Shown in pieces: positions 10,058 through 24,880 of a stretch of 62,529 bases of DNA (position 1 is the first letter of the stretch; every line of letters starts with the position of its first letter). Below the pieces are notes generated by a model. The model was not told the DNA's origin, made no database searches, and worked only from the letters and a program-made list of their open reading frames with translations. Both the position numbers and the translations under genes were made by a program. Source of the stretch: Nitrospirota bacterium (lineage in GTDB: Bacteria; Nitrospirota; Thermodesulfovibrionia; Thermodesulfovibrionales; UBA9159); assembly GCA_037441365.1 (NCBI GenBank), contig JBBISG010000005.1, forward strand, positions 1 to 62,529, given 5' to 3'.

Positions 10058-11068
10058 CTACTTTATGAGTTTCTTCATCTGTTCCTGGAGTGCTTTTACA
10101 TCTCCCTCAAGTTTCTTGACCCTTGCAAAGTCAAACCATTGCTCATTTTCAACCGGATACTTTGTGAAGTGTGAACCCCATACTATCCAGGAATCGTCGT
10201 AGTTTGCAGGTTCCTTATAACCGAGGAGTCGCAGTTGAAGGTAAGTCTGTGTTGAGCGTGTCCCTGTCTGGCAGAGGGCTATTGTGCGCTTATTTTTGTC
10301 CAGGCTCTCATAATATTTTGCCACCCTGTCCGGGGACATAAATGGTGTCGGTACATCTTTGCCCGTCCTCGGGTCCTTCACATGGTCCCTCGTGTCTATA
10401 TGGGATACATTGATTGTTGTGTGAGGAATATGTCCTCCCCTCAGGGCGCGGATGTCTTCGCCATCATACTCAGCCTTTGTTCTGGCATCAATAACCTGAA
10501 TACCCTTTTTTGCACCCTTTGCTATCTGTAGCATCTCATCCGATGTGGCGATCCTGCTTTTTACAACCTTTGCCTTGAAGGCCTTTTCAGGCTTTATCGT
10601 CGGCTCTGTTGCAAGCTTCTTGCCTGCCTTTGTCCATGCATCAAGACCGCCATTTAAGACATGGGTCTTGCCGTCATGACCGAGATATTCAAGAACCCAG
10701 AATGCCACTGTTGCACTTTCCATAGTCTTTGCATCGCCATATGTAACAACATGGGTGTCGTTGCCTATACCGAGTTTGCCGAGTATCTTTTCGTATTTCG
10801 ATACATTATGAAAGACCCTTGATGTGCCGTCTCTCAGTGCCTTTGAGCATGGCTTGCCCATGCTTATAGCCCCTGGTATATGGCCCTTTGTGTAAGAGTC
10901 AAGATCCCTGCAGTCAATGACCACCCAGTCAGGTTTTGTGATATTCTTTTCGACCACATCGGGTGTCACGAGCAGGTCAGGGTGAGCCCACTGGGCAGCA
11001 TCGGCCATTCCGATGGATGCCACCAGCAAAATGCATAAAACAAATACCAAAACCAAACTGCGCCTCAT
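10058..11068 (-). CDS. Secreted tandem-domain rhodanese (thiosulfate/3-mercaptopyruvate sulfurtransferase family)
   Basis: Sec signal peptide, GHIPGA, LNGGLDAW, active-site CQTGTRS, YDDSW. Confidence 0.9.
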   Translation of the reverse strand: MRRSLVLVFVLCILLVASIGMADAAQWAHPDLLVTPDVVEKNITKPDWVVIDCRDLDSYTKGHIPGAISMGKPCSKALRDGTSRVFHNVSKYEKILGKLGIGNDTHVVTYGDAKTMESATVAFWVLEYLGHDGKTHVLNGGLDAWTKAGKKLATEPTIKPEKAFKAKVVKSRIATSDEMLQIAKGAKKGIQVIDARTKAEYDGEDIRALRGGHIPHTTINVSHIDTRDHVKDPRTGKDVPTPFMSPDRVAKYYESLDKNKRTIALCQTGTRSTQTYLQLRLLGYKEPANYDDSWIVWGSHFTKYPVENEQWFDFARVKKLEGDVKALQEQMKKLIK

Positions 11069-11181
11069 AACTTCTTACCTCCTTCTAAGTTTAAGATTCA
11101 GGTTCTCTAAATGAGAACTCTCTGGAATTTTATATCAGTATTATATCTGAGGTGCAACATTTTCTTATCATCCCTAGAGTA

Positions 11182-11197
11182 AGCAAGATTTATGCCA
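11182..11197 (-). promoter_or_regulatory. Sigma54 -24/-12 promoter of the rhodanese gene
   Basis: Minus strand TGGCATAAATCTTGCT matches TGGCA-N6-TTGC spacing. Confidence 0.8.
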
Positions 11198-11238
11198 TAT
11201 CAATACTATTCACCTTTCTGGTCTTTATTGTATATTAC

Positions 11239-11342: not shown

Positions 11343-12359
11343 ATGAATCGCTCCATATCTGTTATTATCCCGAACCGAAATGGCAGTGCTACAATTGAGA
11401 AGTGCCTCAATGCTGCCTTCTCGTCCAGGTATGATAACCTTGAGGTTATTGTAGTCGATGACTGTTCAGAGGACAGATCAGTAGAGGTGATAGAGAAATT
11501 CCCCTGCAGACTCATCAGGCTGGAGAGACATTCAGGTGCTGCCAGGGCGAGGAACATCGGGGCATCCAGCAGCAGTGGCGAGATACTCTTCTTTACCGAT
11601 TCCGATTGCCTCCTGATGGAAGATACCCTGTCTACCATCAACAGGGTTATCAATGCCAACGGCGGACATACCGTTGTCGGCGGAACATACACTAAAGAGC
11701 CCTACGATAAAGGGTTTTTCAGCCACTTTCAGTCTGTATTTATCAATTACTCCGAGACAAAGAGGCAGGATAATCCTGATTATATTGCTGCTCATGCCAT
11801 GGCGATCAGTGCCGAGACATTCAGGGAAAGCGGAGGATTTTCAGAGGACTTCCTGCCTATTGCCGAGGATGTGGAATTCAGCCACAGGCTGAGAAGGGGT
11901 GGCTATAAGCTGATTGTAAGTCCTGACATACTCGTCAGGCATATATTCAATTACACACTTAAAGGCTCCCTCATAAACGCCTTCAGGAAATCCATGTTCT
12001 GGACTATCTATTCGCTTAAAAACAGGGACCTGTTTGCAGACTCAGGCACAGCATCTATAGGGCTCAAGGCAAATGTGACATCATTCTTTATCAGCGTCTT
12101 TTTAATACTGTTATTTCTCATTTCTGATAAGGTCGTTTTCCTTTCCATGCTGCCTTTAATCCTTATTGCCAATCTCGCTACAAACAGTGCCCTGATCACC
12201 GCCTTTTACCGCGCTAAGGGTATCTTTTTTGCTATTGCTTCAGTGTTATACTACATGATGCTCTATCCTCTGCCTGTAGGGCTGGGTGCCATTGCTGGTG
12301 TATTAAAATACCCTTTCTCGAAGAATTTATTCGGCAGGACTAAGGGGTGTGAGGGCTGA
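11343..12359 (+). CDS. Glycosyltransferase family 2 with C-terminal TM helices
   Basis: ISVIIP, VVDDCSED, AARARNIG, FTDSD, AEDVEF. Confidence 0.9.
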   Translation: MNRSISVIIPNRNGSATIEKCLNAAFSSRYDNLEVIVVDDCSEDRSVEVIEKFPCRLIRLERHSGAARARNIGASSSSGEILFFTDSDCLLMEDTLSTINRVINANGGHTVVGGTYTKEPYDKGFFSHFQSVFINYSETKRQDNPDYIAAHAMAISAETFRESGGFSEDFLPIAEDVEFSHRLRRGGYKLIVSPDILVRHIFNYTLKGSLINAFRKSMFWTIYSLKNRDLFADSGTASIGLKANVTSFFISVFLILLFLISDKVVFLSMLPLILIANLATNSALITAFYRAKGIFFAIASVLYYMMLYPLPVGLGAIAGVLKYPFSKNLFGRTKGCEG

Positions 12360-12361
12360 AG

Positions 12362-13456
12362 ATGTATTCACCCTTCCGTCATATAGATTCGGTTCTCAGG
12401 AAGGATAAGATAATCCAGCTTACCTTCTTCTTAACGAAGAGATGCAATCTCAGATGTCCCTTCTGTTTCTATGTTAACGGCAGAAACATAAATAGTTCCG
12501 ATGAACTATCACTGGATGAAATTGAAAGGCTCTCACGCTCCATGGGTGATCTCCTCTGGCTCGCCTTTTCAGGAGGGGAGATTTATCTCAGAGATGACCT
12601 TGTCGAGGTAAGCAGGGTCTTCTACAGAAACAACAGGCCGGCCATAATGCTTTTTCCCACAAATGGGATGCTTCCCGGGCTTATAAGGGAAAAGACTGAA
12701 GAGATACTGCGAGAATGCAAAGAAAGTGTAATCGTTCTGAAGCTCTCACTCGACGGGCTGAATGAAAGACACGATGAACTACGCGGCAGGAGCGGCTGCT
12801 TTGATAATGTAATAACCACCTATAGGCTGCTCGAAGGACTGATAGATAAATACCCCAATTTCGAACTCGGGATCAACACGGTCTTCTGCTCTAAAAACCA
12901 GGATGACATGGGCGGGATAATCGATTTTGTGAGCAGCCTGAAGAATGTGAAGACCCACACAATCTCGATGGTCAGGGGAGATATCAGTGATGCGAGTTAT
13001 AGGGATGTGGATTATGAGAAGTACAAAGGTGCAATAGAGAGGCTTGAGAAGAATCTGAAGAATAAGCCCTCTAATAGATACCGCTTCAGGGGCGCCCGCA
13101 TCAAGGCTGCGCAGGATATCCTGCAGCGCCGTCTGATACATAAGACAGCAACCGAGAAAAAGAGGCCCATCCCATGTTATGCAGGCAGGCTGAATATCGT
13201 TCTGACAGAGACAGGAGATGTCTATCCCTGTGAGATAATCAGAGAATCCCTCGGCAATATAAAAGAGCATGGTTATGATATCGGCAATCTGATTCGGTCA
13301 GGTAGAACAGGAAGGGTCATTAACTCGATAAAAAACAACCAGTGCTACTGCACCCATGAATGTTACTTCATGACTAATATTCTTTTTAATCCCTTATTAT
13401 ACCCTGCGCTTTTAAAGGAATATATGGGGCTTATCCTCAGCCCTCTCCCCGACTGA
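12362..13456 (+). CDS. Radical SAM enzyme with twitch/SPASM-like auxiliary cluster domain
   Basis: CNLRCPFC, SGGE, C-terminal CYAG...VYPCE...CYCTHEC. Confidence 0.9.
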   Translation: MYSPFRHIDSVLRKDKIIQLTFFLTKRCNLRCPFCFYVNGRNINSSDELSLDEIERLSRSMGDLLWLAFSGGEIYLRDDLVEVSRVFYRNNRPAIMLFPTNGMLPGLIREKTEEILRECKESVIVLKLSLDGLNERHDELRGRSGCFDNVITTYRLLEGLIDKYPNFELGINTVFCSKNQDDMGGIIDFVSSLKNVKTHTISMVRGDISDASYRDVDYEKYKGAIERLEKNLKNKPSNRYRFRGARIKAAQDILQRRLIHKTATEKKRPIPCYAGRLNIVLTETGDVYPCEIIRESLGNIKEHGYDIGNLIRSGRTGRVINSIKNNQCYCTHECYFMTNILFNPLLYPALLKEYMGLILSPLPD

Positions 13457-14873
13457 AGACATCCCTCTTTACCCATAACCAGAAAAGGCTCCTGAGTCCT
13501 TTGAGGGTAGCCCTTAGATCATTGATATTTCTGGGGCCGAATATCCTCCTCAGGATAAATCTCGGTCTTGAGTAAAACCGCCTGAAGGCGATCTGCCTGA
13601 GTCTGACTATGTCTTCCTTTGTCATTGTATGAGGGATGAAGGCTGCACCCTGGTATGTAAAGTCAGTGAGGTCATCGGACATAGAGCCATATTTTTCGAT
13701 ATTGTCATGCAGCTCTGTGCCGGGGAATGGTGTAAGACAGTGGAAGTTTGCTACATCAGGGTCTAATTCGCATGCAAACTCTATAGTCTTGAGGGCGTCC
13801 TCATAGGTCTCACCCGGGATGCCGAAGATAAATGGGGTGAAGACCTTTAACCCAGCATCCTTAGCGGTCTTTACAGCCATGCGGGTCTGCTCAAGGGTTA
13901 TTCCTTTCCTGATCGCATTCAGGTTCTTCTGGACACCGCTCTCAGCCCCGAGGAGTATCGCCCAGCAGCCTGCCTCTTTAAATGCCCTCAGGAGCGGCTT
14001 ATCGACCTGATTGACACAGGCAGAGGCAAACCATGCGAAATCGAGCCTTCTTGCCTTTATCTCGAGGGCGAGGTTCATTGCACGCTCATAATCAGCGGCA
14101 AGGGTATCATCAATGAACTTTATCTCCCTGTAACCCTGACTCAGGCACAGATCTATCTCCTTCATAACATTTTCTATACTCCTGTATCTGATGCCGCTCT
14201 TCCTCTCTTTATCGATCTGGAAGCAGAACAGACACCTCCTGTTACACCCCCTGGATGTTATCATTACCGCAACTGGTCTTCTCCTGTATGTAGCAGGCGG
14301 GGGAATGTACCTGTCAGCATCATTCAGGAGTTCCCTGGCAGGGAAGGGGATTGAGTCAAGGTCTGTGATCAGCGGTCTTTCCGGATTCTTTATGATCCTG
14401 TCACCTTCCCTGAAGATCACACCCCTGACACCATTCAATCCACCGCCATTTGACAATCTATCTAAGACCTCTACAACGGTTATTTCACCCTCTCCTGTGA
14501 CGACTGCATCGACCCGCTCCGAATCCATAAGGCATTTATCCTTGACCGCTGTTGGGTAAGGGCCACCAACAGCAATGAATACATCGTCAAGTATTTCCTT
14601 TATATCCCTTGCGGTCATGACAGCCTTCTTCCATCCAAAGGTAGTCGAGTATATCCCCACAAAGGCAGGTCTGTATTCAGAGATAGAGCGTAGTATCCTG
14701 TCATGTGTCATAAATGCCCCATTAAGGAACCTGACATCATGCCCTGCCTTTAAAAGCGATGATGCGACATAGAGGGTTCCGAGCGGCTGCCAGTAATTTA
14801 TCTGGGAGCCTGCAGTCCTGGCAGGGAAGATATCCTCCGGCACCCACGATGGTATGATAAGGGCGCATTTCAT
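13437..14873 (-). CDS. Cobalamin-binding radical SAM enzyme (class B methyltransferase-like)
   Basis: PLGTLYVAS, VGGPYPT, GEGE, SRGCNRRCLFC. Confidence 0.9.
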   Translation of the reverse strand: MKCALIIPSWVPEDIFPARTAGSQINYWQPLGTLYVASSLLKAGHDVRFLNGAFMTHDRILRSISEYRPAFVGIYSTTFGWKKAVMTARDIKEILDDVFIAVGGPYPTAVKDKCLMDSERVDAVVTGEGEITVVEVLDRLSNGGGLNGVRGVIFREGDRIIKNPERPLITDLDSIPFPARELLNDADRYIPPPATYRRRPVAVMITSRGCNRRCLFCFQIDKERKSGIRYRSIENVMKEIDLCLSQGYREIKFIDDTLAADYERAMNLALEIKARRLDFAWFASACVNQVDKPLLRAFKEAGCWAILLGAESGVQKNLNAIRKGITLEQTRMAVKTAKDAGLKVFTPFIFGIPGETYEDALKTIEFACELDPDVANFHCLTPFPGTELHDNIEKYGSMSDDLTDFTYQGAAFIPHTMTKEDIVRLRQIAFRRFYSRPRFILRRIFGPRNINDLRATLKGLRSLFWLWVKRDVFSRGEG

Positions 14874-14875: not shown

Positions 14876-16270
14876 CTATGCCCCTGAAGGCAGGGGTTCC
14901 CTTTGCTGCCTTATTTTCAAGATGCCATTAGCTGCCTCGATGCCTGACTCTATTGCGTGGTCCATATTGAGGTATCTGAACATCCCTCCCCTGCCAGCGA
15001 TGTGGAGGTTTTTAAACTTACTCAAGTAATGGAGAACCCTGAGGCGGTGTTTGCCATAGTCGAGGTCTAAGAGGGGATATGCCTTAGGCACCCGGACAAC
15101 GCAACCGCCAATGACGTCATGCCTCATAATAAATCCTGATTTCTCAAGATAATCCACTGTAGTAGAGATCAGTTTTTCATCGTCACAGCTCCATATCTTA
15201 TCTCCTCTGAAGCAAAAATACTCTGCCACGAGGTGCGTCTTCCCCTCAGGCGCCATACATGGACTCCAGTTCTTCGGCTCATGTATCCTTCCAAACGGGA
15301 TGCCTCTCTCAGGCAAATACATCCATGTAAGGTCTGTGACCCTATCACAGTTAAGCATTATGGCCACAATTATGAGATCTCTATAATTAAGTCTGGCCGC
15401 TGCCTCCATCACATCTTCAGGTGCCGCTGGCTGAAGCCTCTCTATCAGGTTTGTGAGGGGGATGCTCGAAACAAACTCATCGCCTTCAATGCTGTACACC
15501 GATTTACCATCCCTGACAGTCACGCCTTTTATAGAGAAGTCTTTATGATAGACCCGTATAACACTGACATTTGTTAACAAACGGTTTCCCCTCTCGATTT
15601 GTTTCTTCAGACCCTCAGCGATCTGACCTATACCCATCCTCGGATAGATAAAACTATCAGCGAGGGTCGGTATCCCCCTTCCGCTAACCCTGAAAAAGGC
15701 ATTTTTAATCGCCTCCCATAGAGATAGCCCCTTAATCCTCTGAGCAACCCACTGCTTGCTTATGCAACTACAGTCCACCCCCCACACCTTTTCGCTGTAC
15801 TGTTTGAAATAGATATCAAACATCTTACGACCGAACTGATTTATAACCCAATCCTCAAGAGAAACGATTTCATGAGGCTTTACTGCATTCCTGAACTTCT
15901 CCTTAAAATAATCGTAGATGATCTTTAAGGTAGTAAAGGCCCCAAGGCCGAAGATGGCGTTCATGGGTTTTAGAGGATAGTCAAAGTACTTCCCGGACAT
16001 GTATATCTTGCTCTTTCGGTGGACAGTGAGGAAATCGTTTCTCAGGACATCCCTGACAAGTTGTTCTATTTCCCTGTTTTTTGTGAGAAACCTGTGACCC
16101 CCCAGGTCGAACCTGAAGCCGTTGTGATTTATGGTCTTTGCCAGACCACCCACAGAGGAATCCCTCTCAATGAGGATGACCTCACGTCCTGACCTGGAAA
16201 GGATGTAGCCTGCAGATAGACCTGATAGCCCCCCCCCGAAAATGACTATCTCGGTGTTTCTGTGGTGCAT
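14876..16270 (-). CDS. FAD-dependent oxidoreductase (protoporphyrinogen oxidase/UDP-galactopyranose mutase-like superfamily)
   Basis: GGGLSGLSAG, VGGLAKT, FDLGGHRF, GRGGMFRYLNMDHAI. Confidence 0.85.
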   Translation of the reverse strand: MHHRNTEIVIFGGGLSGLSAGYILSRSGREVILIERDSSVGGLAKTINHNGFRFDLGGHRFLTKNREIEQLVRDVLRNDFLTVHRKSKIYMSGKYFDYPLKPMNAIFGLGAFTTLKIIYDYFKEKFRNAVKPHEIVSLEDWVINQFGRKMFDIYFKQYSEKVWGVDCSCISKQWVAQRIKGLSLWEAIKNAFFRVSGRGIPTLADSFIYPRMGIGQIAEGLKKQIERGNRLLTNVSVIRVYHKDFSIKGVTVRDGKSVYSIEGDEFVSSIPLTNLIERLQPAAPEDVMEAAARLNYRDLIIVAIMLNCDRVTDLTWMYLPERGIPFGRIHEPKNWSPCMAPEGKTHLVAEYFCFRGDKIWSCDDEKLISTTVDYLEKSGFIMRHDVIGGCVVRVPKAYPLLDLDYGKHRLRVLHYLSKFKNLHIAGRGGMFRYLNMDHAIESGIEAANGILKIRQQREPLPSGA

Positions 16271-18873: not shown

Positions 18874-18889
18874 AGCAAGGTCCATGCCA
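18874..18889 (-). promoter_or_regulatory. Sigma54 -24/-12 promoter of the yeeE-tusA operon
   Basis: Minus strand TGGCATGGACCTTGCT. Confidence 0.8.
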
Positions 18890-19060: not shown

Positions 19061-20746
19061 TCACTGTTCATCTATGGACAGGCAGCCTTTGCCAGCTATA
19101 ATGACAAAGGTCCTGAAGAGAAAGACGTCTGAGGCTGAAAATTCTTTCATCAGTTTGAGCTCCTGTTCGCCATTTACCATATCTCCCCTAAAACTGCCAG
19201 GCCTCTCACCTGACAGGATGGCAATAAGGGGGCCTCCTTTATTATCTGTTTCATAGTAGAACCGAGGCAGTTTAAGCTCATATGTAAAACGGAGGGGTGA
19301 GGTTTCGATGCCTTGTGATGGCAACATCTGTCCCTGACGATAGAGAATCCTTTTAGTTGTGAATAGGTCGAGAATCGGTATCGCAGCTTCTGTATTGCCG
19401 ATGGGGGTCTTCTGTGGAAGGGTATAGACCTCTACAGTTTCACACCCGAGGGTGTCGAGGTATCTGCCTGCATCTCTCAGGTTTATAGCACCTGCCCTGT
19501 TCAGAAATGGCAGAAAACCGAAAAACAGGGTAACAGCCGATGAGGCTGCAACACAGAAAACTATGAACCTTTTAATCTCCCTGTCCGCTATTATGTGAAG
19601 CCCGTATGAGGCCATGAGCGTGAAAAGCGGAAATAACGGAAGGATGTATCTAATCCGCTTAACATGAAGAGTGAGGATGAAGACAGCAAACCATCCTGCT
19701 ATGAGAAATCTCCAATCCCTTTTCTTGATGGCAATCGGTACTGCAATCAATGCAAGTATGGTGATGAATGGATGGCTCTGGAAAAGGAATGTGGAGCTAA
19801 AGCCTTCATGCCAGCGCTCCAGGCCAGGCCACTGATAAGAACTCAGTAGCGCTATCTGTGACCTGAAGACATCGTATTTTATCAGGAACAGAGACCCTGA
19901 AAGGATACAGACGATAAACATTATCATACACATGTTAAGGATGGCCTTCCTCCTGTCCTGTGCAGGGCAGACAATGGCTGCTACTGGTAAGATTGAGAGC
20001 ATCAACACTGCGGAGAACTTCGAAAAGATGGCAAGGAACACTGACAGTGAAGCCAGCAATATCCAGAGAATTCCACCCCCTCTGACGGACCTTATAAAAA
20101 CAAATATCGAAAGTGTTAAGAAAAACATGGTCGGGATGTCTACAAGCATAAGTGGAACCTGTGTCAGGAGATAAGGGATGCCGAGAAGCAATATCCCTGC
20201 AGAGAGGCCTGTTTCCCTGTCCCAGAGGAACCTGCCGAGGAGATAAGTTACCACGGCTGTAAGTGAAAAAAGAAGGGTATTAAAGAGCTGGATGAAGATT
20301 CTCGACTCTCCGAGGTATCTGAATATAATGCCATAAAAAAAGGGGACTACAGGCATGTCTGTCCAGGCAAATATTTCTCTCCCCCATTCCCTGAAGAAAT
20401 AGCTTATCCCGTAAAGCTCAAGATATTTTGCCTGAATAAAGTATCTCGAGGCATCAAGGATGACCTCGGGCTCTTCCCAGAGGGGCAGAACAGTTACAAA
20501 CGAGAGTATAAAGAGGAATGGGGCAGGGTGTCTTTCTGGGAAGGAGAGTTTCGAGAAAAAAAACGAAAGGACTATCCCGACGATGATGAAGGATAACACC
20601 CTTCCTATCCCCGTGTCTGAAAATACCCATCTCCAGCTTGTTAGGGTATTGTCATCAAGATTGCGAAGGGTGTAGAGAATTGGCAATATAATCAGTGTCA
20701 GAAACGAAACTATCAGGATAGAGTCTGTCTTTTCGAGCCTTCCCAA
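19061..20746 (-). CDS. GT-C fold membrane glycosyltransferase (ArnT/PMT, GT39/83-like)
   Basis: About 12 TM helices, ILDASRYF, DMPVVPF, AIFSKFS, RYILPLFP; TTG start. Confidence 0.8.
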   Translation of the reverse strand: MGRLEKTDSILIVSFLTLIILPILYTLRNLDDNTLTSWRWVFSDTGIGRVLSFIIVGIVLSFFFSKLSFPERHPAPFLFILSFVTVLPLWEEPEVILDASRYFIQAKYLELYGISYFFREWGREIFAWTDMPVVPFFYGIIFRYLGESRIFIQLFNTLLFSLTAVVTYLLGRFLWDRETGLSAGILLLGIPYLLTQVPLMLVDIPTMFFLTLSIFVFIRSVRGGGILWILLASLSVFLAIFSKFSAVLMLSILPVAAIVCPAQDRRKAILNMCMIMFIVCILSGSLFLIKYDVFRSQIALLSSYQWPGLERWHEGFSSTFLFQSHPFITILALIAVPIAIKKRDWRFLIAGWFAVFILTLHVKRIRYILPLFPLFTLMASYGLHIIADREIKRFIVFCVAASSAVTLFFGFLPFLNRAGAINLRDAGRYLDTLGCETVEVYTLPQKTPIGNTEAAIPILDLFTTKRILYRQGQMLPSQGIETSPLRFTYELKLPRFYYETDNKGGPLIAILSGERPGSFRGDMVNGEQELKLMKEFSASDVFLFRTFVIIAGKGCLSIDEQ

Positions 20747-20751: not shown

Positions 20752-21054
20752 CTACAGGATAATGACCCTGTCAGAATTATGGTTCATCGCGGCATTATTG
20801 TACTGGCTTCCGCAGATGATATCTTTTGATATACCTTCGGTCCTCACACCGAGCCTTTTTGCACTGTGGTCACAGAAACTCATGGTAACGCCTTGAAGGC
20901 TGCAGAGTTCGGTATATGAAGGGTTTTCGAGAAGCCTTGTTCCATCATCCATGGCGAATATCGAAACCTCATGCCCCTTTGATATGGCCGCCCTTGTGAG
21001 TCCTATCACTGCCTCGATGTTTTTATCTGTATTAACTAATATCCCGAGTTTCAT
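20752..21054 (-). CDS. DsrE-like sulfurtransferase family protein
   Basis: MKLGILV...GHEVSIFAMDDG...FCDHSA...SDRVIIL. Confidence 0.8.
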   Translation of the reverse strand: MKLGILVNTDKNIEAVIGLTRAAISKGHEVSIFAMDDGTRLLENPSYTELCSLQGVTMSFCDHSAKRLGVRTEGISKDIICGSQYNNAAMNHNSDRVIIL

Positions 21055-21066: not shown

Positions 21067-21240
21067 TCACCATGGTATTACCTTATCAGCCGTGGCGATA
21101 AGGTCTATAATCTGGTTGTAGTCTTTGTTGACTCTAATATCGACAACAGTAACCTCGTTATTTTTTCTATGCATATCCATGATCTTCTTAACCGTTTCGT
21201 CAGGGTCCTGTCTCAAAAGGTATAATATCTTCATGTCCAT
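21067..21240 (-). CDS. 57-aa DsrH/TusB-like protein (not in the ORF track)
   Basis: Manual translation: MDMKILYLLRQDPDETVKKIMDMHRKNNEVTVVDIRVNKDYNQIIDLIATADKVIPW*. AGAGGTG RBS; DY..IIDLI...DKVI.W C-terminus typical of DsrH. Confidence 0.8.
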   Translation of the reverse strand: MDMKILYLLRQDPDETVKKIMDMHRKNNEVTVVDIRVNKDYNQIIDLIATADKVIPW

Positions 21241-21258
21241 CACCTCTTTATCGATCTT

Positions 21259-21531
21259 TTAGTATGGTAATATATGATCATACTCAAGGAGCCTCTGGGC
21301 AATCTCCTCTGTGGAGATATACTCCAGTCCTTCATTCCCCCTGTGGTTTGTATACACACGCATATCCATTTCTCTCATCGTCTCGAGATTAAGCAGATTG
21401 TCCTCCGACTCTTCTACCTTCCTGTCAAGCACATATACATCGATCAGATCATCCATCAGTGTTATGCCCACCGCCATCCTCATGGCCTCGCCCTGTCTGT
21501 CCCTGACTAATACAGCTATCTTCTTTGCCAT
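21259..21531 (-). CDS. DsrF-like small protein
   Basis: MAKKIAVLVRDRQGEAMRMAVG...EEIAQRLLEYDHILPY; GGAGG RBS precedes ATG 21531. Confidence 0.7.
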   Translation of the reverse strand: MAKKIAVLVRDRQGEAMRMAVGITLMDDLIDVYVLDRKVEESEDNLLNLETMREMDMRVYTNHRGNEGLEYISTEEIAQRLLEYDHILPY

Positions 21532-21785
21532 CTTGCCGCCTCCTGTTTCTTTATCCTGAAACGGAATAATCCGTCTTCCTCGCCTATCCTGATCAGGCTG
21601 CACCCTGCCTTTGAGCACAGCATCGGTATGGCATCCCGCGTGCCGGTGTTATTCGTGATCACATCAAGGACACTCCCAGCATGCATCCCCTTTAATGTAT
21701 TGGCGATCACAATTGTCGACAGGGGACATGACATCCCCCTGACATCAAGCACCCTATCCACCCTATCGAGAGGTTCCTGACCCAT
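21516..21785 (-). CDS. tusA: Second TusA family sulfur carrier
   Basis: LDVRGMSCPLS, GSVLDVIT. Confidence 0.85.
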   Translation of the reverse strand: MGQEPLDRVDRVLDVRGMSCPLSTIVIANTLKGMHAGSVLDVITNNTGTRDAIPMLCSKAGCSLIRIGEEDGLFRFRIKKQEAARWQRR

Positions 21786-21799: not shown

Positions 21800-21815
21800 T
21801 GCAAAGATGATGCCA
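21800..21815 (-). promoter_or_regulatory. Sigma54 -24/-12 promoter of tusA-dsrFHE-like-GT-C operon
   Basis: Minus strand TGGCATCATCTTTGCA; it would give a nearly leaderless transcript. Confidence 0.7.
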
Positions 21816-21869
21816 GAATCAGGAATTGAAAAATCTCTTTGATTATTTTTATATTATTGAGGGGAGGTT

Positions 21870-23534
21870 ATGGCGGGCTGGATATATTTCCATATCACTG
21901 AAGACTACTTTATCTTTCTGGTATGCGTGGTTATTGCTGCCAGGGTCGTAAGGATCCTTAAATCAAAAAACCAGAATTTAGATGCAGAGAAAAGGAGCAG
22001 GCTCTTTATCTTTGGTTCAGGCTTTGTGATCCTCGGTTTAAGCAGCTTTATCCATGCCTCGATCCACGCCCTGTCGCTTGATCCGAACTCCCTGTACCAG
22101 ACACTGTTTGGCTACTCCTTCGGCCTTTTTACACTCATAATCGCAATCTCTTCAGAGAGACCGTGGAAGATAAGGGCCCTGCCGCTGCTGTATCTTCCCA
22201 TGCTTTTACTCCTTATACCCGATGTCTTTGAGAAATTCCCCCTCTTTGTTCACTTCAGACCGCTTATGTGGGTTATAGTCTCTTTATCCTCGGGTATTGT
22301 ATGCATGCTCTACATAGCCACCTTTTACCGAACAAGGAATAGAAGGTTTCTCTATTCAGCCTCGGGCCATGCGATTGTCTGCCTCTCAGCCATAGTGCTG
22401 TTCTTTCCAGCAGCCATTGGAACGGGTGCGTGGATCTACGGCCACATATTGAGGCCACTCGGTTTCGGAATACTCTTATTCAGTGTGACGAGTAATGAGC
22501 TCATGGAACTTAAAGGCAGCATCCTCTACAAGGCTATATCCTCCTTCAGTCTCCTTGCAGCTATCCCGCTACTTGTCTTTGGCACAGTCATGCTTTATGA
22601 AAATATCAACCCTGTTAATGTCTTTGAGAAAAAGGTGATAGTATTCATGCTCTTGCTTGTGACGCTTGTTTCTGCACTCATATTCGGTCTCAGCATGATC
22701 ATAAGGCTGATACGGCCGATACTGAAACTTAAGAGCTCCGTTGATACCCTCGTTGAAGAAGGTTTTAACAAAAGGATAGAAATAAGCAGCAATGACGAGA
22801 TAGGGGAGCTGTCCAGCGCATTTAACGGGATGGTTGTCAAGCTCCGACAGGCCATTGCAGAGCAGGACAGGCTCAGCAGACTGGCTGCGACAGGCGAGCT
22901 TGCAGCCACTCTCGCCCACGAGATAAAAAACCCGCTCAATGCCATCAGCGGCTGCGCCACATATATCGGAAAGAACTTCAGGGGACATTTAATTGAGGAG
23001 TTTGTGAGTATAATTAATGATGAGGTGTCGAGGATAAACAAGCTCACAATGACACTGCTGAATTTTGCCAGGTCTGTAAAGCCTGACCTCCGGCCATCAG
23101 ATATAAACAAACTCGTCAATGAGACCATCACACTCCTGAGCGGCGAGTTCAGCGAGCGCGGTGTGAGTGTCGGCAAGGAACTCTCGGAGCGTATCCCGCT
23201 GATCAGCCTCGACTACAACCAGATAAAACAGGTGCTGATAAATCTCCTCGTCAACTCCTTTGATGCCGTAGAAAGGGGAGGCACAATTAAGGTAAGGACA
23301 TTTCTTTCGAATGGAAATGTGCACATCTCTGTAGAGGACAATGGTAAGGGCATCAGACAGGAGGATATAGGGAATATCTTCAACCCCTTTTTCACAACAA
23401 AAACGAGAGGAACAGGTCTCGGTCTTTCTATCTCGAGAAAGATTGCAAGGGAACATAATGGTGATATAATAGTTGAGAGTGTCCCGGGCATGGGGAGTAA
23501 GTTCACGATCCTTTTGCCGGCTGTAATAATATGA
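21870..23534 (+). CDS. Membrane sensor histidine kinase (multi-TM sensor, HAMP, HisKA, HATPase)
   Basis: About 8 TM helices, DEIGEL HAMP, AHEIKNPL, DNGKGI, GTGLGL. Confidence 0.92.
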   Translation: MAGWIYFHITEDYFIFLVCVVIAARVVRILKSKNQNLDAEKRSRLFIFGSGFVILGLSSFIHASIHALSLDPNSLYQTLFGYSFGLFTLIIAISSERPWKIRALPLLYLPMLLLLIPDVFEKFPLFVHFRPLMWVIVSLSSGIVCMLYIATFYRTRNRRFLYSASGHAIVCLSAIVLFFPAAIGTGAWIYGHILRPLGFGILLFSVTSNELMELKGSILYKAISSFSLLAAIPLLVFGTVMLYENINPVNVFEKKVIVFMLLLVTLVSALIFGLSMIIRLIRPILKLKSSVDTLVEEGFNKRIEISSNDEIGELSSAFNGMVVKLRQAIAEQDRLSRLAATGELAATLAHEIKNPLNAISGCATYIGKNFRGHLIEEFVSIINDEVSRINKLTMTLLNFARSVKPDLRPSDINKLVNETITLLSGEFSERGVSVGKELSERIPLISLDYNQIKQVLINLLVNSFDAVERGGTIKVRTFLSNGNVHISVEDNGKGIRQEDIGNIFNPFFTTKTRGTGLGLSISRKIAREHNGDIIVESVPGMGSKFTILLPAVII

Positions 23535-24880
23535 AGGGCAACATACTTGTAGTGGATGATGAAATTAACACACTGAAGGTGCTTTCAGCCACCCTCAGGA
23601 GAGAGATGTTTAATGTAGAGACGGCAAAAACTGGTGAAGATGCCCTTTTGCGGCTGGAAGGCAACCATTATGACCTCATCATCTCTGATTTCAAATTGCC
23701 AGGCATTGACGGAGAGGCCTTACTGGAGAGAGTGAGGTCCATGAACCCGGCAACTCCATTCATCCTCCTGACCGCCTACGGGACCATAGAGCGTGCAGTA
23801 AATGCAATGCGGAAGGGGGCATATACCTATCTCACAAAGCCCGTGGATATAGATCACCTTATTACGGTTGTGAAGGATGCATTGAGGGAGAGGATTTGTA
23901 AACCTGCTGATAAGGATGCAAATCAATTCCTTAATATCATCGGCAGGTCATCAGCCATGCAGGAGGTCTTCTCGCTCATCCATCGTGTGAGCAAGACCGA
24001 TGCAAATATTCTCATACTCGGCGAAAGCGGGACGGGCAAGGAGCTTGTAGCAAGGGCTATTCACTACACATCCATGAGGGCAGACAAACCCTTTATACCT
24101 ATAGACTGCACAACTATCCCTGCCGAGCTTATGGAAAGTGAACTCTTTGGATACGAAAAAGGCGCCTTTACCTGTGCCTATAATGCAAAGGTAGGTCTTA
24201 TAGAGATGGCGGATGGGGGCACTATCTTTTTTGACGAGATCGGAGACCTCGATTTTGTATTACAGAAAAAACTCCTGAGGTTTCTCCAGGAAAAGGAGTT
24301 TCACAGATTAGGAGGGAAAAACAGCATCAAGATCGATATAAGGATCCTTGCTGCAACCAACAGAAATATAGAAGATGCTGTAAAAGGGGGAAAGTTCAGG
24401 GCAGACCTTTATTATAGATTAAATGTTATCACTATACATATACCGCCCCTGAGGGAGAGGAAAGAGGACATCCCCTTGCTTGCCACACACTTCCTTCAGG
24501 TCTTCAGTGATAAAAATAAAAAGAATATCTACGGTTTTGACTCGAGGGTAATGGAGTCTCTGGTTAATTATGATTGGCCTGGCAATGTGAGAGAGCTCGA
24601 AAATGTAGTAGAACGGTCAGTTATCCTCTGCAGCAGCGATCAGATAAGCCTTGACTGTCTCCCGGGCAAGCTTAAAACCTTTACGAAAAATGAGCCTATT
24701 GATAATAACTTTAACCTCCTCGAAACAGAGAAAAGGGTCATTCTCAGGGCACTTAATGCTGCAGGATGGAATCAGACAAGGGCAGCAGAGATACTCGGCA
24801 TCACCCGCAAACAGCTCAGGACAAAGATGAAAAACCATAGATTGTTCCAGGACAGGGCTGCATCCGATCAAAGGGCCTGA
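23531..24880 (+). CDS. Sigma54-dependent response regulator (NtrC family: REC, AAA+, HTH)
   Basis: VVDDE, GESGTGKE, GAFTCA (variant of GAFTGA), FFDEI, WPGNVREL, NQTRAAEILG. Confidence 0.93.
   Translation: MKGNILVVDDEINTLKVLSATLRREMFNVETAKTGEDALLRLEGNHYDLIISDFKLPGIDGEALLERVRSMNPATPFILLTAYGTIERAVNAMRKGAYTYLTKPVDIDHLITVVKDALRERICKPADKDANQFLNIIGRSSAMQEVFSLIHRVSKTDANILILGESGTGKELVARAIHYTSMRADKPFIPIDCTTIPAELMESELFGYEKGAFTCAYNAKVGLIEMADGGTIFFDEIGDLDFVLQKKLLRFLQEKEFHRLGGKNSIKIDIRILAATNRNIEDAVKGGKFRADLYYRLNVITIHIPPLRERKEDIPLLATHFLQVFSDKNKKNIYGFDSRVMESLVNYDWPGNVRELENVVERSVILCSSDQISLDCLPGKLKTFTKNEPIDNNFNLLETEKRVILRALNAAGWNQTRAAEILGITRKQLRTKMKNHRLFQDRAASDQRA

What the first reader, a model, noticed from the sequence alone, without database searches (positions are those of the whole stretch)
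10058..24880. Sigma54-controlled sulfur-relay cluster fused with a glycosylation/radical-SAM module (candidate new pathway)
Seen: secreted rhodanese, YeeE (3 Cys), two TusA and DsrE/F/H-like genes are interleaved with GT2, a twitch/SPASM radical SAM, a B12 radical SAM, an FAD oxidoreductase and a GT-C transferase, plus a dedicated kinase and NtrC regulator. The GT-C gene follows dsrE directly, and the oxidoreductase and B12-rSAM follow yeeE-tusA in the same direction. Known: YeeE-TusA-DsrE (YTD) clusters occur in sulfur disproportionators; GT2 plus GT-C pairs build and transfer lipid-linked sugars. Inference: imported sulfur is relayed by persulfide carriers to make a sulfur-containing or methylated sugar that is attached to a lipid or envelope protein, or the envelope is remodelled during growth on sulfur compounds. 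I know of no described pathway with this combination.
Basis: partly seen in the sequence, partly recalled or inferred. Interest (0 to 1): 0.85.

Follow-up and report, generated by a model that had tools for sequence, protein, structure and literature searches.

The report
Sulfur relay genes interleaved with glycosylation
A known sulfur import-and-relay gene set sits interleaved with genes for building and exporting an unusual sugar, and this pairing recurs in many sulfur-cycling bacteria from several phyla, which points to an undescribed envelope component of sulfur metabolism.

Summary
Window 10058-24880 holds a YTD-type sulfur set: a secreted rhodanese, YeeE-TusA, and TusA with a DsrE type II-like protein and two small proteins. 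It also holds a glycosylation set: GT2 plus a SPASM/twitch radical SAM, a UDP-galactopyranose-mutase-like flavoenzyme plus a B12 radical SAM, and a GT-C transferase. A histidine kinase and an NtrC-type regulator flank them.

Of 82 related loci with enough flank, 62 keep GT-C and 68 keep a YeeE-family gene beside the B12 radical SAM. This holds in Nitrospirota, in Desulfobulbales and in records labelled as other phyla, and in several different gene orders.

The glycosylation genes also occur alone as a five-gene module. In the phylum sample, 80 of 87 genomes carrying it also have dsrA.

Strict sigma-54 promoter motifs lie only before sulfur genes, never before the glycosylation or radical SAM genes.

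Best reading: a polyprenyl-phosphate-linked, radical-tailored furanose-type sugar is transferred in the periplasm onto an envelope acceptor that serves dissimilatory sulfur uptake. A sulfur-containing sugar stays possible but less likely. Product, acceptor and expression are untested. I found no published description.

The parts
10058..11068 (-). Secreted tandem-domain rhodanese (336 aa)
   Evidence: Pfam Rhodanese 5.6e-29 with 2 stretches. N-terminal hydrophobic segment 1-28. Orthologs flank the cluster in many loci.
11182..11197 (-). Sigma-54 -24/-12 motif upstream of the rhodanese gene
   Evidence: TGGCAT-N5-TTGCT, 114 nt before the start codon. One of 15 strict sites in the 1.81-Mb genome.
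11343..12359 (+). GT2 glycosyltransferase with C-terminal membrane segments (338 aa)
   Evidence: Pfam Glycos_transf_2 1.8e-28. Hydrophobic segments 237-312. Weak PDB sequence matches include dolichol-P-mannose synthase 5mlz, E 3e-7. The gap to the next gene is 2 nt.
12362..13456 (+). SPASM/twitch-class radical SAM enzyme (364 aa)
   Evidence: Pfam Radical_SAM. Invariant C28, C32, C35 plus C119, C272, C290, C328, C330, C334 in 40 sequences. Model pLDDT 88.8. VIA Z scores: SkfB 23.4, BlsE 22.0, anSME 20.2, DesII 19.2.
13437..14873 (-). B12-binding (class B) radical SAM enzyme (478 aa), marker of the module
   Evidence: Pfam B12-binding plus Radical_SAM. Best NCBIfam hit is HpnJ, 210 bits, below the 577.6 cut-off. 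Best PDB sequence hit is AprD4 6fd2, E 1.4e-26. It forms a tight orthogroup: one full-length 50% cluster at 66% identity, and the next at 43-46%.
14876..16270 (-). UDP-galactopyranose-mutase-like FAD enzyme (464 aa)
   Evidence: NCBIfam NF005548 449.9 bits, above the 389 cut-off. The profile matches T. cruzi UGM 4dsg at E 2.3e-35 over residues 7-460, with the GGH loop and the Arg/Tyr/Trp motifs aligned. The gap to the B12 radical SAM is 2 nt here; the median is 4 nt in 109 pairs.
16349..16813 (-). Universal stress protein (154 aa)
   Evidence: Pfam Usp 1.6e-21. Present at this place in 45 of 82 loci.
16838..17092 (-). 84-aa protein with an N-terminal membrane segment and a Gly/Ala/Pro/Tyr-rich tail (GGYGAP-type repeats)
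   Evidence: No Pfam or NCBIfam hit. 57 distinct ORFs of this kind lie directly downstream of tusA in other loci. It is the only such ORF in the own genome and none occurs in the 11 module-only loci scanned.
17112..17363 (-). TusA-family sulfur carrier (83 aa) partnered with YeeE
   Evidence: Pfam TusA 1.5e-19. CPHP motif. The median gap from yeeE is 36 nt in 81 pairs.
17399..18829 (-). YeeE/YedE-family sulfur transporter, long form (476 aa)
   Evidence: Pfam Sulf_transp 1.1e-37. It scores below the cut-offs of the TsuA and YedE equivalogs. Orthologs at 50-73% identity lie next to TusA and GT-C.
18874..18889 (-). Sigma-54 -24/-12 motif upstream of yeeE
   Evidence: TGGCAT-N5-TTGCT, 45 nt before the start codon. 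The same position carries a strict motif in 15 distinct loci.
19061..20746 (-). GT-C fold glycosyltransferase (561 aa)
   Evidence: Pfam PMT_2 5.9e-9. Model pLDDT 90.5. VIA Z scores: AglB 26.4, ArnT 24.5 (442 residues aligned), ALG12 24.3, STT3 24.2, Pmt4 22.7; the first unrelated fold scores 8.7 or less. Invariant D31, D130, D203, R364, R366, Y367 in 53 sequences.
20752..21054 (-). DsrE type II-like sulfur transferase subunit (100 aa)
   Evidence: Pfam DsrE 3e-7, 31 bits, above the 22.7 cut-off. Invariant Cys61 in 24 sequences. Weak profile hit to A. vinosum DsrE 2hy5, E 0.18.
21067..21243 (-). 58-aa conserved small protein, in the position of a YTD 'Chp' (DsrF/H type II candidate)
   Evidence: No Pfam hit. 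Conserved next to the dsrE-like gene in many loci. The identity rests on the published description of the YTD cluster (passages). Its fold was not tested here.
21259..21531 (-). 90-aa conserved small protein, in the position of a YTD 'Chp' (DsrF/H type II candidate)
   Evidence: No Pfam hit. 28-sequence alignment with 68% mean column identity. No PDB hit and no profile relation to the DsrE-like protein.
21516..21785 (-). Second TusA-family protein (89 aa), first gene of the tusA-dsrEFH-like-GT-C string
   Evidence: Pfam TusA 1.5e-16. It overlaps the next gene by 16 nt.
21800..21815 (-). Sigma-54 -24/-12 motif upstream of tusA2
   Evidence: TGGCAT-N5-TTGCA, 15 nt before the annotated start codon. 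6 distinct loci carry a strict motif before tusA2 and 3 before the 90-aa gene.
21870..23534 (+). Membrane histidine kinase (about 8 hydrophobic segments, HAMP, HisKA, HATPase)
   Evidence: Pfam. Hydrophobic segments 4-287. Orthologs at 54-61% identity lie next to the cluster in some loci, for example L026, L073, L076, L118.
23531..24880 (+). NtrC-type sigma-54 enhancer-binding response regulator
   Evidence: Pfam Response_reg, Sigma54_activat and HTH_8. rpoN is present in the genome, 442.7 bits, above the 277 cut-off.

Best explanation
The region is one copy of a conserved, widely shared composite gene cluster made of two interleaved sets.

SHOWN
(1) A YTD-type dissimilatory sulfur import and relay set. 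It comprises a secreted rhodanese, a YeeE-family channel with TusA, a small GGYG-repeat membrane protein, Usp, and a second TusA with a DsrE type II-like protein and two small proteins. In this genome it has three sigma-54 promoter motifs and sits beside a membrane kinase and an NtrC-type regulator.
(2) A five-gene glycosylation module. It comprises a UDP-galactopyranose-mutase-like flavoenzyme tightly coupled to a B12 radical SAM enzyme, a membrane-anchored GT2 tightly coupled to a SPASM/twitch radical SAM enzyme, and a GT-C fold transferase.
(3) The two sets stay together in several different gene orders in Nitrospirota, in Desulfobulbales and in records labelled as other phyla. The module also occurs alone, and in the phylum sample it is nearly confined to genomes with dsrA.

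INFERRED
- In the cytoplasm a nucleotide sugar is contracted to a furanose form by the mutase-like enzyme.
- The two radical SAM enzymes then rework it, for example by C-methylation, rearrangement or deoxygenation.
- GT2 loads the sugar on polyprenyl phosphate.
- After flipping, GT-C transfers it at the periplasmic face onto an envelope acceptor. Candidate acceptors are lipid A or the LPS core, the secreted rhodanese, or the GGYG-repeat protein.
- The resulting glycoconjugate serves the periplasmic side of sulfur acquisition, by capturing or handing over polysulfide, S0 or thiosulfate to YeeE, or by protecting the envelope.
- The sulfur itself travels from YeeE to TusA to DsrE type II to DsrC. 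The sugar need not contain sulfur.
For: Gene identities.

Sugar chemistry:
- The flavoenzyme profile matches UGM 4dsg over its full length at E 2.3e-35, with the catalytic-site motifs aligned.
- The best solved relative of the B12 radical SAM is the aminoglycoside enzyme AprD4, and its best family is HpnJ, though below the cut-off.
- The fold neighbours of the other radical SAM include the sugar or nucleoside enzymes BlsE (Z 22.0) and DesII (Z 19.2).
- GT2 has C-terminal membrane segments.
- GT-C fold: ArnT Z 24.5, AglB Z 26.4, Pmt4 Z 22.7.

Linkage:
- There are 131 distinct B12 radical SAM ortholog copies. Of the 82 with at least 9 kb on the upstream side, 69 have the flavoenzyme, 68 a Sulf_transp gene (54 at 45% identity or more), 54 TusA, 62 GT-C and 49 DsrE-like. 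Nine have neither GT-C nor a close YeeE.
- Ten of 15 further YeeE loci chosen away from the B12 radical SAM hits still have GT-C next to yeeE.
- Other gene orders keep the same set: L144, L147, L152, L143, L153, L157. In 14 of 20 Desulfobulbales loci, tusA and dsrE-like genes are followed by GT2 and the radical SAM in the same direction.

Phyletic pattern in 401 phylum genomes:
- The B12 radical SAM ortholog is in 87 and the YeeE ortholog in 64. Sixty of those 64 also have the B12 radical SAM.
- dsrA is in 80 of the 87 carriers against 119 of the other 314.
- In the order of Desulfurivibrio, 36 of 151 genomes carry the ortholog.
- 24 of the 80 best public loci carry non-Nitrospirota labels. 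Sixteen of those 24 show both a YeeE-family gene and GT-C.

Operon structure:
- Median gap from flavoenzyme to B12 radical SAM is 4 nt (83 of 109 pairs at 30 nt or less).
- Median gap from GT2 to the radical SAM is -1 nt (37 of 42 at 30 nt or less).
- In the window GT-C starts 5 nt after the dsrE-like gene.

The relay destination, TusA to DsrE type II to DsrC, was shown in vitro for cable-bacterial homologs (passages).
Against: - No sigma-54 motif precedes any GT or radical SAM gene: 0 of 48 distinct strict sites.
- The joints between the two sets are usually wide. The median gap is 136 nt from usp to the flavoenzyme (12 of 69 at 30 nt or less), 257 nt from the dsrE-like gene to GT-C (6 of 36), and 207 nt from GT-C to yeeE. 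Separate transcription is therefore possible.
- Each set can stand alone. 27 of 87 module-bearing genomes have no match to this YeeE. Published YTD clusters are described as five contiguous genes (passages).
- GT2 and the radical SAM lie within reach in only 39 of 92 loci.
- The flavoenzyme is missing from 11 of 20 Desulfobulbales loci, one of which is truncated.
- No flippase or nucleotide-sugar synthase gene recurs in the neighbourhood.
- The product, the acceptor and expression are all untested.
- Related genomes are not independent, and labels of metagenome-assembled records can be wrong.
Confidence: 0.5

Rival explanations
1. Thiosugar pathway. Sulfane sulfur imported by YeeE is passed through TusA and the DsrE-like proteins to one of the radical SAM enzymes. 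That enzyme inserts it into the sugar, and the sulfur-containing sugar is then exported by GT2 and GT-C.
For: - tusA and dsrE-like genes directly precede GT2 and the radical SAM gene in the same direction in 14 of 20 Desulfobulbales loci and in Desulfurivibrio.
- The 90-aa DsrF/H candidate sits next to GT2 in many Nitrospirota loci.
- The radical SAM enzyme has six invariant Cys besides the SAM cluster, enough for an auxiliary cluster.
- From established knowledge (recalled): the E. coli TusA-TusBCD-TusE relay, homologous to DsrEFH, feeds a biosynthetic thiolation, and radical SAM enzymes with auxiliary clusters insert sulfur.
Against: - The module works in genomes and loci with no relay beside it: 27 of 87 genomes, and loci L048, L054, L056, L061-L063, L065.
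- The invariant Cys pattern is the same in those loci.
- No family signature of sulfur-inserting enzymes appears. MiaB/RimO score 44.5 bits at best for the B12 enzyme, and BioB and LipA are not among the listed hits.
- DsrE type II passes sulfur to DsrC in vitro.
Confidence: 0.17
2. Neighbours without a shared pathway. The glycosylation module is a general envelope (for example LPS) decoration system of Dsr-bearing anaerobes. It travels together with the sulfur genes on a transferable block, or is merely co-located, with no direct functional dependence.
For: - Promoter motifs lie only before sulfur genes.
- The gaps at the joints are wide.
- Each set occurs alone.
- LPS heptosyltransferase genes recur nearby, in 14 loci and in L012.
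- High identity (65-72%) across phylum labels suggests lateral transfer of the block.
Against: - The set is kept through at least five different gene orders. A frozen transferred block would not show that.
- GT-C accompanies yeeE one-to-one, even in second copies away from the rest of the module.
- Sixty of 64 YeeE-bearing genomes carry the module.
- Sulfur genes are inserted inside the module, between the flavoenzyme and GT-C.
Confidence: 0.18
3. Selenium (or another chalcogen or metalloid) handling. YedE/YedF-like proteins import and carry selenium, and the module makes a seleno- or arseno-sugar.
For: - The best NCBIfam hits of the transporter and of TusA1 are the selenium-type YedE/FdhT (141 bits) and YedF (48.6 bits).
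- The second-best hit of GT2 is the arsenosugar glycosyltransferase family (87 bits).
- selD, with an in-frame TGA, is present in the genome.
Against: - All these scores lie below the curated cut-offs of 350, 79 and 182 bits.
- selD is on another contig.
- The cluster carries a DsrE type II-like set and co-occurs with dsrA.
- The published relay is sulfur-specific.
Confidence: 0.04

Closest known systems
[quoted passage not shown]
   Same: A YeeE-family transporter next to TusA. A DsrE-like protein with a conserved Cys plus two small conserved proteins. Co-occurrence with reductive-type dsr genes. A secreted rhodanese nearby.
   Different: Here, and in most related loci, a GT-C gene sits between the dsrE-like genes and yeeE. 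A mutase-like flavoenzyme plus a B12 radical SAM follow yeeE-tusA, and GT2 plus a radical SAM converge on them. There are two TusA genes. None of the passages I read mention glycosyltransferases or radical SAM genes: 0 occurrences in the five YTD-related papers searched for these terms.
Three-component periplasmic glycosylation systems: polyprenyl-phosphate GT2 plus flippase plus GT-C, for example ArnC/ArnT, GtrA/B/C, Ppm1/Pmt (recalled knowledge)
   Same: A GT2 with C-terminal membrane helices paired with a GT-C fold enzyme (ArnT Z 24.5, Pmt4 Z 22.7).
   Different: No GtrA-like flippase recurs in the neighbourhood. The sugar is apparently tailored by a mutase-like flavoenzyme and two radical SAM enzymes. 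The system is embedded in a sulfur relay cluster. The acceptor is unknown.
Eukaryotic-type UDP-galactopyranose mutase (PDB 4dsg, 3ute)
   Same: Full-length profile match at E 2.3e-35. The GGH loop and the Arg/Tyr/Trp motifs are aligned.
   Different: The score is far below the bacterial Glf equivalog cut-off (60.2 against 303.75 bits). It belongs to the unnamed NCBIfam family NF005548. It is always coupled to a B12 radical SAM gene. Its substrate is unknown.
HpnI/HpnJ of hopanoid cyclitol-ether synthesis, and AprD4 of apramycin synthesis
   Same: A B12-domain radical SAM enzyme acting, in those systems, on a sugar moiety. A GT2 is in the same cluster. HpnJ is the best NCBIfam hit (210 bits) and AprD4 the best solved relative.
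   Different: The score is below the HpnJ cut-off of 577.6 bits. No hopene cyclase was found in the genome, which is 91% complete. GT2 scores only 21.7 bits with HpnI.
Sulfur globule envelope proteins SgpA-D of Allochromatium (PMC10386293, passages)
   Same: The 84-aa protein family is small, has an N-terminal hydrophobic leader, and has a repetitive sequence with regularly spaced Pro. It is encoded beside sulfur genes.
   Different: No sequence relation was tested. The repeats here are of the GGYGAP type. The topology is uncertain. The carriers include sulfate reducers and disproportionators that are not known for globules.

Membership tests
YTD / yeeE-tusA-dsrEFH type II cluster | YeeE/YedE-family (Sulf_transp) transporter gene adjacent to a TusA gene | tested here: met
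   Pfam Sulf_transp 1.1e-37 and TusA 1.5e-19, 35 nt apart.
YTD / yeeE-tusA-dsrEFH type II cluster | DsrE-like protein with a conserved sulfur-binding Cys | tested here: met
   Pfam DsrE 31 bits, above the 22.7 cut-off. Cys61 is invariant in 24 sequences. Equivalence to the published Cys67 is inferred.
YTD / yeeE-tusA-dsrEFH type II cluster | Two small conserved proteins that fold as DsrF- and DsrH-like subunits | tested here: inconclusive
   Two conserved small ORFs of 58 and 90 aa are in the right place. They have no Pfam, PDB or profile relation. No structure prediction was run.
YTD / yeeE-tusA-dsrEFH type II cluster | Co-occurrence with dsrAB | tested here: met
   dsrA scores 560.8 bits, above the 392.85 cut-off, in the own genome.
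GT-C glycosyltransferases (ArnT/PMT/STT3 class) | Multi-helix GT-C membrane fold with a periplasmic C-terminal domain | tested here: met
   Model pLDDT 90.5. All of the top 20 VIA matches are GT-C enzymes with Z from 9.9 to 26.4; the next fold scores 8.7 or less. Foldseek agrees.
GT-C glycosyltransferases (ArnT/PMT/STT3 class) | Catalytic acidic residue in the first periplasmic loop | tested here: inconclusive
   Asp31 lies directly after the first helix and is invariant in 53 sequences. Structural equivalence to the catalytic Asp was not checked.
Polyprenyl-phosphate glycosyltransferases (GtrB/ArnC/DPMS type GT2) | GT-A domain followed by C-terminal membrane helices; specific family score | tested here: inconclusive
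   The architecture is met. ArnC scores 17.5 bits against a 529 cut-off. DPMS 5mlz matches at E 3e-7 over the N-terminal part only.
UDP-galactopyranose mutase | FAD fold with the UGM active-site motifs over the full length | tested here: met
   Profile against 4dsg: E 2.3e-35, residues 7-460. The GGH, EWVxxR, WxYxPE...R, YP and GRxGxxRY motifs are aligned. GxGxxG is invariant. The residue roles are recalled, not tested.
UDP-galactopyranose mutase | Score above the curated Glf equivalog cut-off (TIGR00031) | tested here: not met
   60.2 bits against 303.75. It is a member of NF005548, 'hypothetical protein' (449.9 bits, above 389).
HpnJ (hopanoid cyclitol-ether radical SAM) | Score above the TIGR03471 cut-off, and a hopanoid pathway in the genome | tested here: not met
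   210 bits against 577.6. No hopene cyclase match in the own genome, which is 91% complete.
Class B (B12-binding) radical SAM | N-terminal B12-binding domain plus CxxxCxxC radical SAM core | tested here: met
   Pfam B12-binding 4.7e-18 and Radical_SAM 6.4e-24. C210, C214 and C217 are invariant.
SPASM/twitch radical SAM | Radical SAM core plus a C-terminal Cys-rich auxiliary-cluster domain | tested here: met
   Invariant C272, C290, C328, C330, C334. Fold neighbours are SkfB, BlsE, SuiB, anSME and PqqE with Z from 19.9 to 23.4. The number of clusters was not determined.
Sigma-54 regulon | -24/-12 promoter motif upstream of the gene, with rpoN and an enhancer-binding protein present | tested here: met
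   Met for rhodanese, yeeE and tusA2 only. No motif lies before GT2, the flavoenzyme, the B12 radical SAM or GT-C, here or in any other locus.
Sulfur globule proteins (for the 84-aa protein) | Sequence or structural homology to SgpA-D; location on sulfur globules | not tested
   Only a resemblance in size, leader and repetitiveness (PMC10386293 passages).

The most novel reading that the evidence does not exclude
The cluster encodes a so far unknown 'glyco-sulfur' step of dissimilatory sulfur metabolism. A radical-SAM-tailored furanose-type sugar, possibly thiol-bearing, is carried on polyprenyl phosphate and attached by GT-C to a periplasmic lipid or to the GGYG-repeat protein. That glycoconjugate would be the long-sought periplasmic handle that binds zero-valent sulfur or polysulfide and feeds it to YeeE, TusA, DsrEFH type II and DsrC.
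Probability: 0.15. Interest if true: 0.9.

Novelty: new variant of a known kind. Interest (0 to 1): 0.72.

Why it matters
The YTD / DsrEFH type II cluster is at the centre of current work on sulfur disproportionation and on sulfide oxidation by 'sulfate reducers' and cable bacteria (papers from 2020 to 2026).

That work treats the cluster as five genes acting in the membrane and cytoplasm. How insoluble or polymeric sulfur is captured in the periplasm and handed to YeeE remains open.

In many carriers the relay genes are embedded in a conserved module that builds and exports a sugar, and the module is almost restricted to Dsr-bearing genomes. This gives concrete, testable candidates for that missing periplasmic step: GT-C, the B12 radical SAM, the mutase-like enzyme and the GGYG-repeat protein.

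It also flags two radical SAM enzymes and a bacterial relative of eukaryotic-type UGM that have no assigned reaction.

Cultured Desulfurivibrio strains carry the cluster (L144), so the idea can be tested with existing strains and possibly with existing omics data.

Tried and rejected
- The protein atlas search with the B12 radical SAM gave only generic B12/radical SAM clusters.
- Sequencing runs: no RNA holder was listed. The DNA holders are subsurface and hot-spring metagenomes. I did not lay reads.
- GT-C had no sequence match in the PDB at E up to 0.1. Its fold was settled with a model instead.
- Complex prediction of the flavoenzyme with the B12 radical SAM gave no answer.
- The 90-aa protein had no PDB hit and no profile relation to the DsrE-like protein.
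- No Rfam family matched in 9500-25500 at E up to 0.1.
- Relaxed sigma-54 pattern: 29 matches with up to 2 mismatches against 28 expected. It was not informative, so I used the strict pattern.
- Hopanoid (HpnI/HpnJ) reading: rejected.
- Recoding: in-frame stops in a few related ORFs were read-through of my ORF extension or N runs, not recoding.
- A literature search for sulfur globule proteins with glycine and tyrosine found nothing. A looser search gave one usable paper.
- Literature searches for the combination found nothing. A looser search listed no paper holding both radical SAM and the relay terms in a relevant way.
They include synteny tables and figures of PMC13293266, PMC9751629 and PMC13047784, and the proteome table of PMC12142623. 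They might list these neighbours or their expression.

Full report
OBSERVATION

On the minus strand, read in the direction of transcription:
- tusA2 (21516-21785).
- A 90-aa ORF (21259-21531) and a 58-aa ORF (21067-21243).
- A DsrE-like gene (20752-21054).
- GT-C (19061-20746).
- yeeE (17399-18829).
- tusA1 (17112-17363).
- An 84-aa membrane protein gene (16838-17092).
- usp (16349-16813).
- An FAD enzyme gene (14876-16270).
- A B12 radical SAM gene (13437-14873).

On the plus strand, GT2 (11343-12359) and a second radical SAM gene (12362-13456) converge on that string. A secreted tandem rhodanese (10058-11068, minus) lies beyond them. A membrane histidine kinase and an NtrC-type activator (21870-24880, plus) diverge from tusA2.

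Gaps in the window are 5 nt from the dsrE-like gene to GT-C, 231 nt from GT-C to yeeE, 78 nt from usp to the FAD enzyme gene, 2 nt from the FAD enzyme gene to the B12 radical SAM, and 2 nt from GT2 to the radical SAM.

SIGMA-54

Three strict -24/-12 motifs (TGGCAT-N5-TTGCW) lie on the minus strand before rhodanese, yeeE and tusA2. The whole 1.81-Mb genome has 15 such sites, against 3.4 expected from base composition, and three of them fall in this 10.7-kb stretch. rpoN is present.

Across all fetched loci there are 48 distinct strict sites. Thirty-one lie less than 300 nt upstream of mapped cluster genes: yeeE 15, tusA2 6, the 90-aa gene 3, usp 3, rhodanese 2, kinase 2. None lies before GT2, either radical SAM gene, the FAD enzyme gene or GT-C. 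Seventeen lie elsewhere.

So the sulfur genes are sigma-54 targets. The glycosylation genes could be reached only by read-through. No Rfam element was found.

WHAT THE PROTEINS ARE

FAD enzyme.
- It is a member of the unnamed NCBIfam family NF005548 (449.9 bits, cut-off 389).
- A profile of 37 orthologs matches Trypanosoma cruzi UDP-galactopyranose mutase over residues 7-460 at E 2.3e-35.
- The printed alignment pairs the GGH loop, the EWVxxR arginine, the WxYxPE...R stretch, YP and GRxGxxRY. The roles of those residues are recalled, not tested.
- It does not reach the bacterial Glf equivalog cut-off.

B12 radical SAM.
- It is closest to HpnJ (210 bits, below the cut-off) and BchE among families, and to AprD4 among solved proteins.
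- No hopene cyclase is found in the genome.
- In a library of 1.84 billion cluster representatives it has one full-length relative at 66% identity. The next relatives lie at 43-46%, so it marks a tight orthogroup.

Second radical SAM.
- It has the SAM-cluster cysteines plus six invariant cysteines.
- Its confident model (pLDDT 88.8) is nearest to SkfB, BlsE, SuiB, anSME, PqqE, viperin-like enzymes and DesII. That places it in the SPASM/twitch class.

GT2. It has a GT-A domain and C-terminal hydrophobic segments.

GT-C candidate.
- It has no PDB sequence match.
- Its model (pLDDT 90.5) aligns with AglB (Z 26.4), ArnT (Z 24.5, 442 residues), ALG12, STT3, Pmt4, Pmt1/2 and PglB. Unrelated folds start at Z 8.7.
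- An aspartate directly after the first helix is invariant.

Sulfur genes.
- They match the published YTD cluster: yedE-related gene, tusA, dsrE-like gene and two conserved hypothetical proteins.
- Two 2026 papers identify the latter three as DsrEFH type II. [quoted passage not shown]
- Here the DsrE-like protein has an invariant Cys61.
- The two small proteins could not be tied to DsrF/H by sequence.
- The genome has dsrA.

IS THE LINKAGE CONSERVED?

Relatives in the same order. The B12 radical SAM has clear orthologs (59-79% identity) in 29 of 60 relatives, and the next matches are at 38% or less. I fetched up to 20 kb around each ortholog and mapped the window's proteins by tblastn. The same string recurs across families of the order.

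The wider phylum. In a sample of 401 genomes the ortholog is in 87, including other orders and classes. Thirty-seven further loci show the same arrangement.

Other phyla. A scan of one genome per GTDB species returned 113 relatives, of which the best 80 (65-79% identity) were kept. Forty-nine carry Nitrospirae/Nitrospirota/Thermodesulfovibrio-type labels, 7 carry no taxon label, and 24 carry other labels. The other labels include:
- Desulfobulbaceae, Desulfurivibrio (among them an isolate record) and Desulfarculaceae.
- Rokubacteria, Actinomycetes and Acidobacteria.
- Gamma- and Betaproteobacteria, Acidiferrobacteraceae and Thalassospiraceae.

Sixteen of those 24 show both a YeeE-family gene and GT-C beside the B12 radical SAM. 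Most of the rest are short contigs.

Pooled and de-duplicated counts. There are 131 distinct ortholog copies, of which 82 have at least 9 kb on the upstream side. Among those 82:
- 69 have the FAD enzyme gene.
- 68 have a Sulf_transp gene, 54 of them at 45% identity or more.
- 54 have TusA, 45 have Usp, 62 have GT-C and 49 have the DsrE-like gene.
- 9 have neither GT-C nor a close YeeE.

A weak 'YeeE-like' hit that I checked is a full 362-aa Sulf_transp protein.

GT2 and the second radical SAM are within reach in 39 of 92 loci with enough downstream sequence.

A second lineage. In the order of Desulfurivibrio (Desulfobulbales by NCBI taxonomy), 36 of 151 genomes have the ortholog. Of 20 fetched loci, 19 have GT-C, 16 have a Sulf_transp gene, and 3 are module-only. 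In 14 of them tusA and dsrE-like genes are followed in the same direction by GT2 and the radical SAM.

Gene order differs between lineages while the set is kept. Examples are L144, L147 and L152; L143; L153; L156; and L157, which has eleven co-directional genes.

A MODULE THAT ALSO STANDS ALONE

In L048, L054, L056, L057, L061-L063 and L065 the order is GT2, radical SAM, then convergent B12 radical SAM, FAD enzyme, GT-C, with no sulfur gene between.

Compared with that state, the window's arrangement looks like yeeE-tusA-usp inserted between the FAD enzyme gene and GT-C, with the dsrE-like genes placed after GT-C.

Conversely, I chose 15 YeeE loci because they were not next to the B12 radical SAM hit. 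Ten of them still have GT-C directly beside yeeE.

Phyletic pattern in the 401 genomes:
- 87 have the B12 radical SAM and 64 have this YeeE.
- 60 have both, 4 have YeeE only, 27 have the module marker only, and 310 have neither.
- dsrA (E of 1e-100 or better) is in 199 genomes. That is 80 of the 87 marker genomes against 119 of the other 314.
- Five module-only genomes all have dsrA, four of them above the cut-off.

Related genomes are not independent, so I give these as counts, not as tests.

OPERON STRUCTURE ACROSS LOCI

- FAD enzyme to B12 radical SAM: median gap 4 nt, 83 of 109 pairs at 30 nt or less.
- GT2 to radical SAM: median -1 nt, 37 of 42 at 30 nt or less.
- yeeE to tusA: median 36 nt.
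- usp to FAD enzyme: median 136 nt, 12 of 69 at 30 nt or less.
- dsrE-like to GT-C: median 257 nt, 6 of 36 at 30 nt or less.
- GT-C to yeeE: median 207 nt.

The cluster is therefore a string of small units that are kept adjacent and mostly co-directional. It is not one obligatory operon.

OTHER RECURRENT NEIGHBOURS

I clustered all ORFs of 146 non-redundant loci without reference to the window. The recurrent neighbours are:
- An alternative 363-aa Sulf_transp gene (22 loci) with a 76-aa partner (17 loci).
- A single-domain secreted rhodanese (18 loci).
- An ABC ATPase (20 loci) with an FtsX-type permease (19 loci).
- LPS heptosyltransferase (14 loci).
- U32 peptidase (13 loci).
- An OprO/P-like porin (11 loci).

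No flippase and no nucleotide-sugar synthase recur.

The 84-aa protein belongs to a family of small proteins with an N-terminal hydrophobic segment and tandem GGYGAP-type repeats. Members lie directly downstream of tusA (57 distinct ORFs). It is absent from the 11 module-only loci scanned and unique in the own genome. In size, leader and repetitiveness it resembles sulfur globule envelope proteins as described in PMC10386293 (passages). That is a lead, not a test.

MECHANISM

Shown: the gene identities, the folds, the coupling of gene pairs, the conserved and rearranged neighbourhood, the restriction to Dsr-bearing genomes, and the placement of the promoter motifs.

Inferred, as my best explanation (about 0.5):
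- The module makes an unusual furanose-derived, radical-tailored sugar.
- GT2 loads it on polyprenyl phosphate.
- GT-C transfers it in the periplasm to an envelope acceptor that serves sulfur capture or hand-over to YeeE.
- The sulfur follows the published route from YeeE to TusA to DsrE type II to DsrC.

Rivals:
- A sulfur-containing sugar fed by the relay, about 0.17. It is favoured by tusA and dsrE-like genes running into GT2 and the radical SAM. It is weakened by module-only genomes and by the DsrC destination.
- Neighbours without a shared pathway, about 0.18.
- Selenium or arsenic handling, about 0.04. All family scores for it lie below the cut-offs, and selD is elsewhere in the genome.

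KNOWN OR NEW

Four full-text searches for the combination found no relevant paper. Two returned 0 papers, and two looser ones listed none that joins radical SAM with the relay terms in a relevant way. The five YTD-related papers I searched for these terms hold 0 occurrences of 'radical SAM' and of 'glycosyl' or 'glycosyltransferase' in their main text.

I saw only passages of these papers. I saw neither their supplements nor Umezawa 2020 itself.

I rate the finding as a new variant of known kinds: the YTD relay plus a GT2/GT-C periplasmic glycosylation system. It carries unassigned radical SAM chemistry.

LIMITS

- There are no expression data; no RNA holder was listed.
- The product and the acceptor are unknown.
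- Taxon labels of metagenome-assembled records may be wrong.
- The loci were chosen through the B12 radical SAM or through YeeE. The counts therefore describe those genes' surroundings, not all YTD clusters.

Noticed in passing
window 16838-17092 (-); e.g. L006, L020, L033, L084 downstream of tusA: A family of small proteins (about 60-130 aa) with an N-terminal hydrophobic segment and tandem GGYGAP-type repeats is encoded directly after yeeE-tusA in many genomes. It has no Pfam hit. It resembles sulfur globule envelope proteins in size, leader and repetitiveness.
   Followed up: partly
L012:7908-9326 (-), and 22 or 17 other loci: Many related clusters carry a standard-length (about 363 aa) Sulf_transp gene in place of the long YeeE. 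Its partner is a 76-aa protein ending in Cys-Gly-Cys-Ala that is not recognised as TusA by Pfam.
   Followed up: partly
window 42771-47625 (-): A second lipid-type gene set: two beta-ketoacyl synthases, a FabA-like dehydratase, an SDR reductase and a methyltransferase. It is separate from the plsX-fabH pair at 36782-38771.
   Followed up: no
window 40001-42100: G+C drops to 0.375 against about 0.46-0.49 around it. The stretch covers a methyltransferase gene (40929-41783) and a short HEPN-domain ORF (41776-42054). It may be acquired DNA.
   Followed up: no
window 8872-9993 (+): A bacterial eRF1-like protein (baeRF family 10, E 2.3e-30) follows an AI-2E family transporter gene. The same pair lies next to the cluster in L018.
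   Followed up: no
window 27421-30257 (-): DXP synthase and a polyprenyl synthetase lie about 2.5 kb beyond the NtrC gene, separated from it by a solute-binding protein gene and a GGDEF regulator gene. They are a possible source of the polyprenyl carrier. This is not conserved in the other loci examined.
   Followed up: no
G000 C48:2680-4864 and 10285-10821; C17:24992-27113: The genome has one dsrAB pair above the dsrA cut-off and a second, lower-scoring dsrAB-like pair. A selD with an in-frame TGA lies on the dsrAB contig.
   Followed up: no
L054:13620-19237; L056:1198-2511; 11 to 20 loci: Module-only and composite loci often carry an OprO/P-like porin gene and an ABC ATPase with an FtsX-type permease nearby. 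LPS heptosyltransferase genes recur in 14 loci and also lie at window 58964-61557.
   Followed up: partly
L082, L137 (record titles): Some public records that carry this cluster have species-level labels that look unlikely for it, namely a Nitrospira species name and a Bacteroides label. Taxon labels of these assemblies should be read with care.
   Followed up: no
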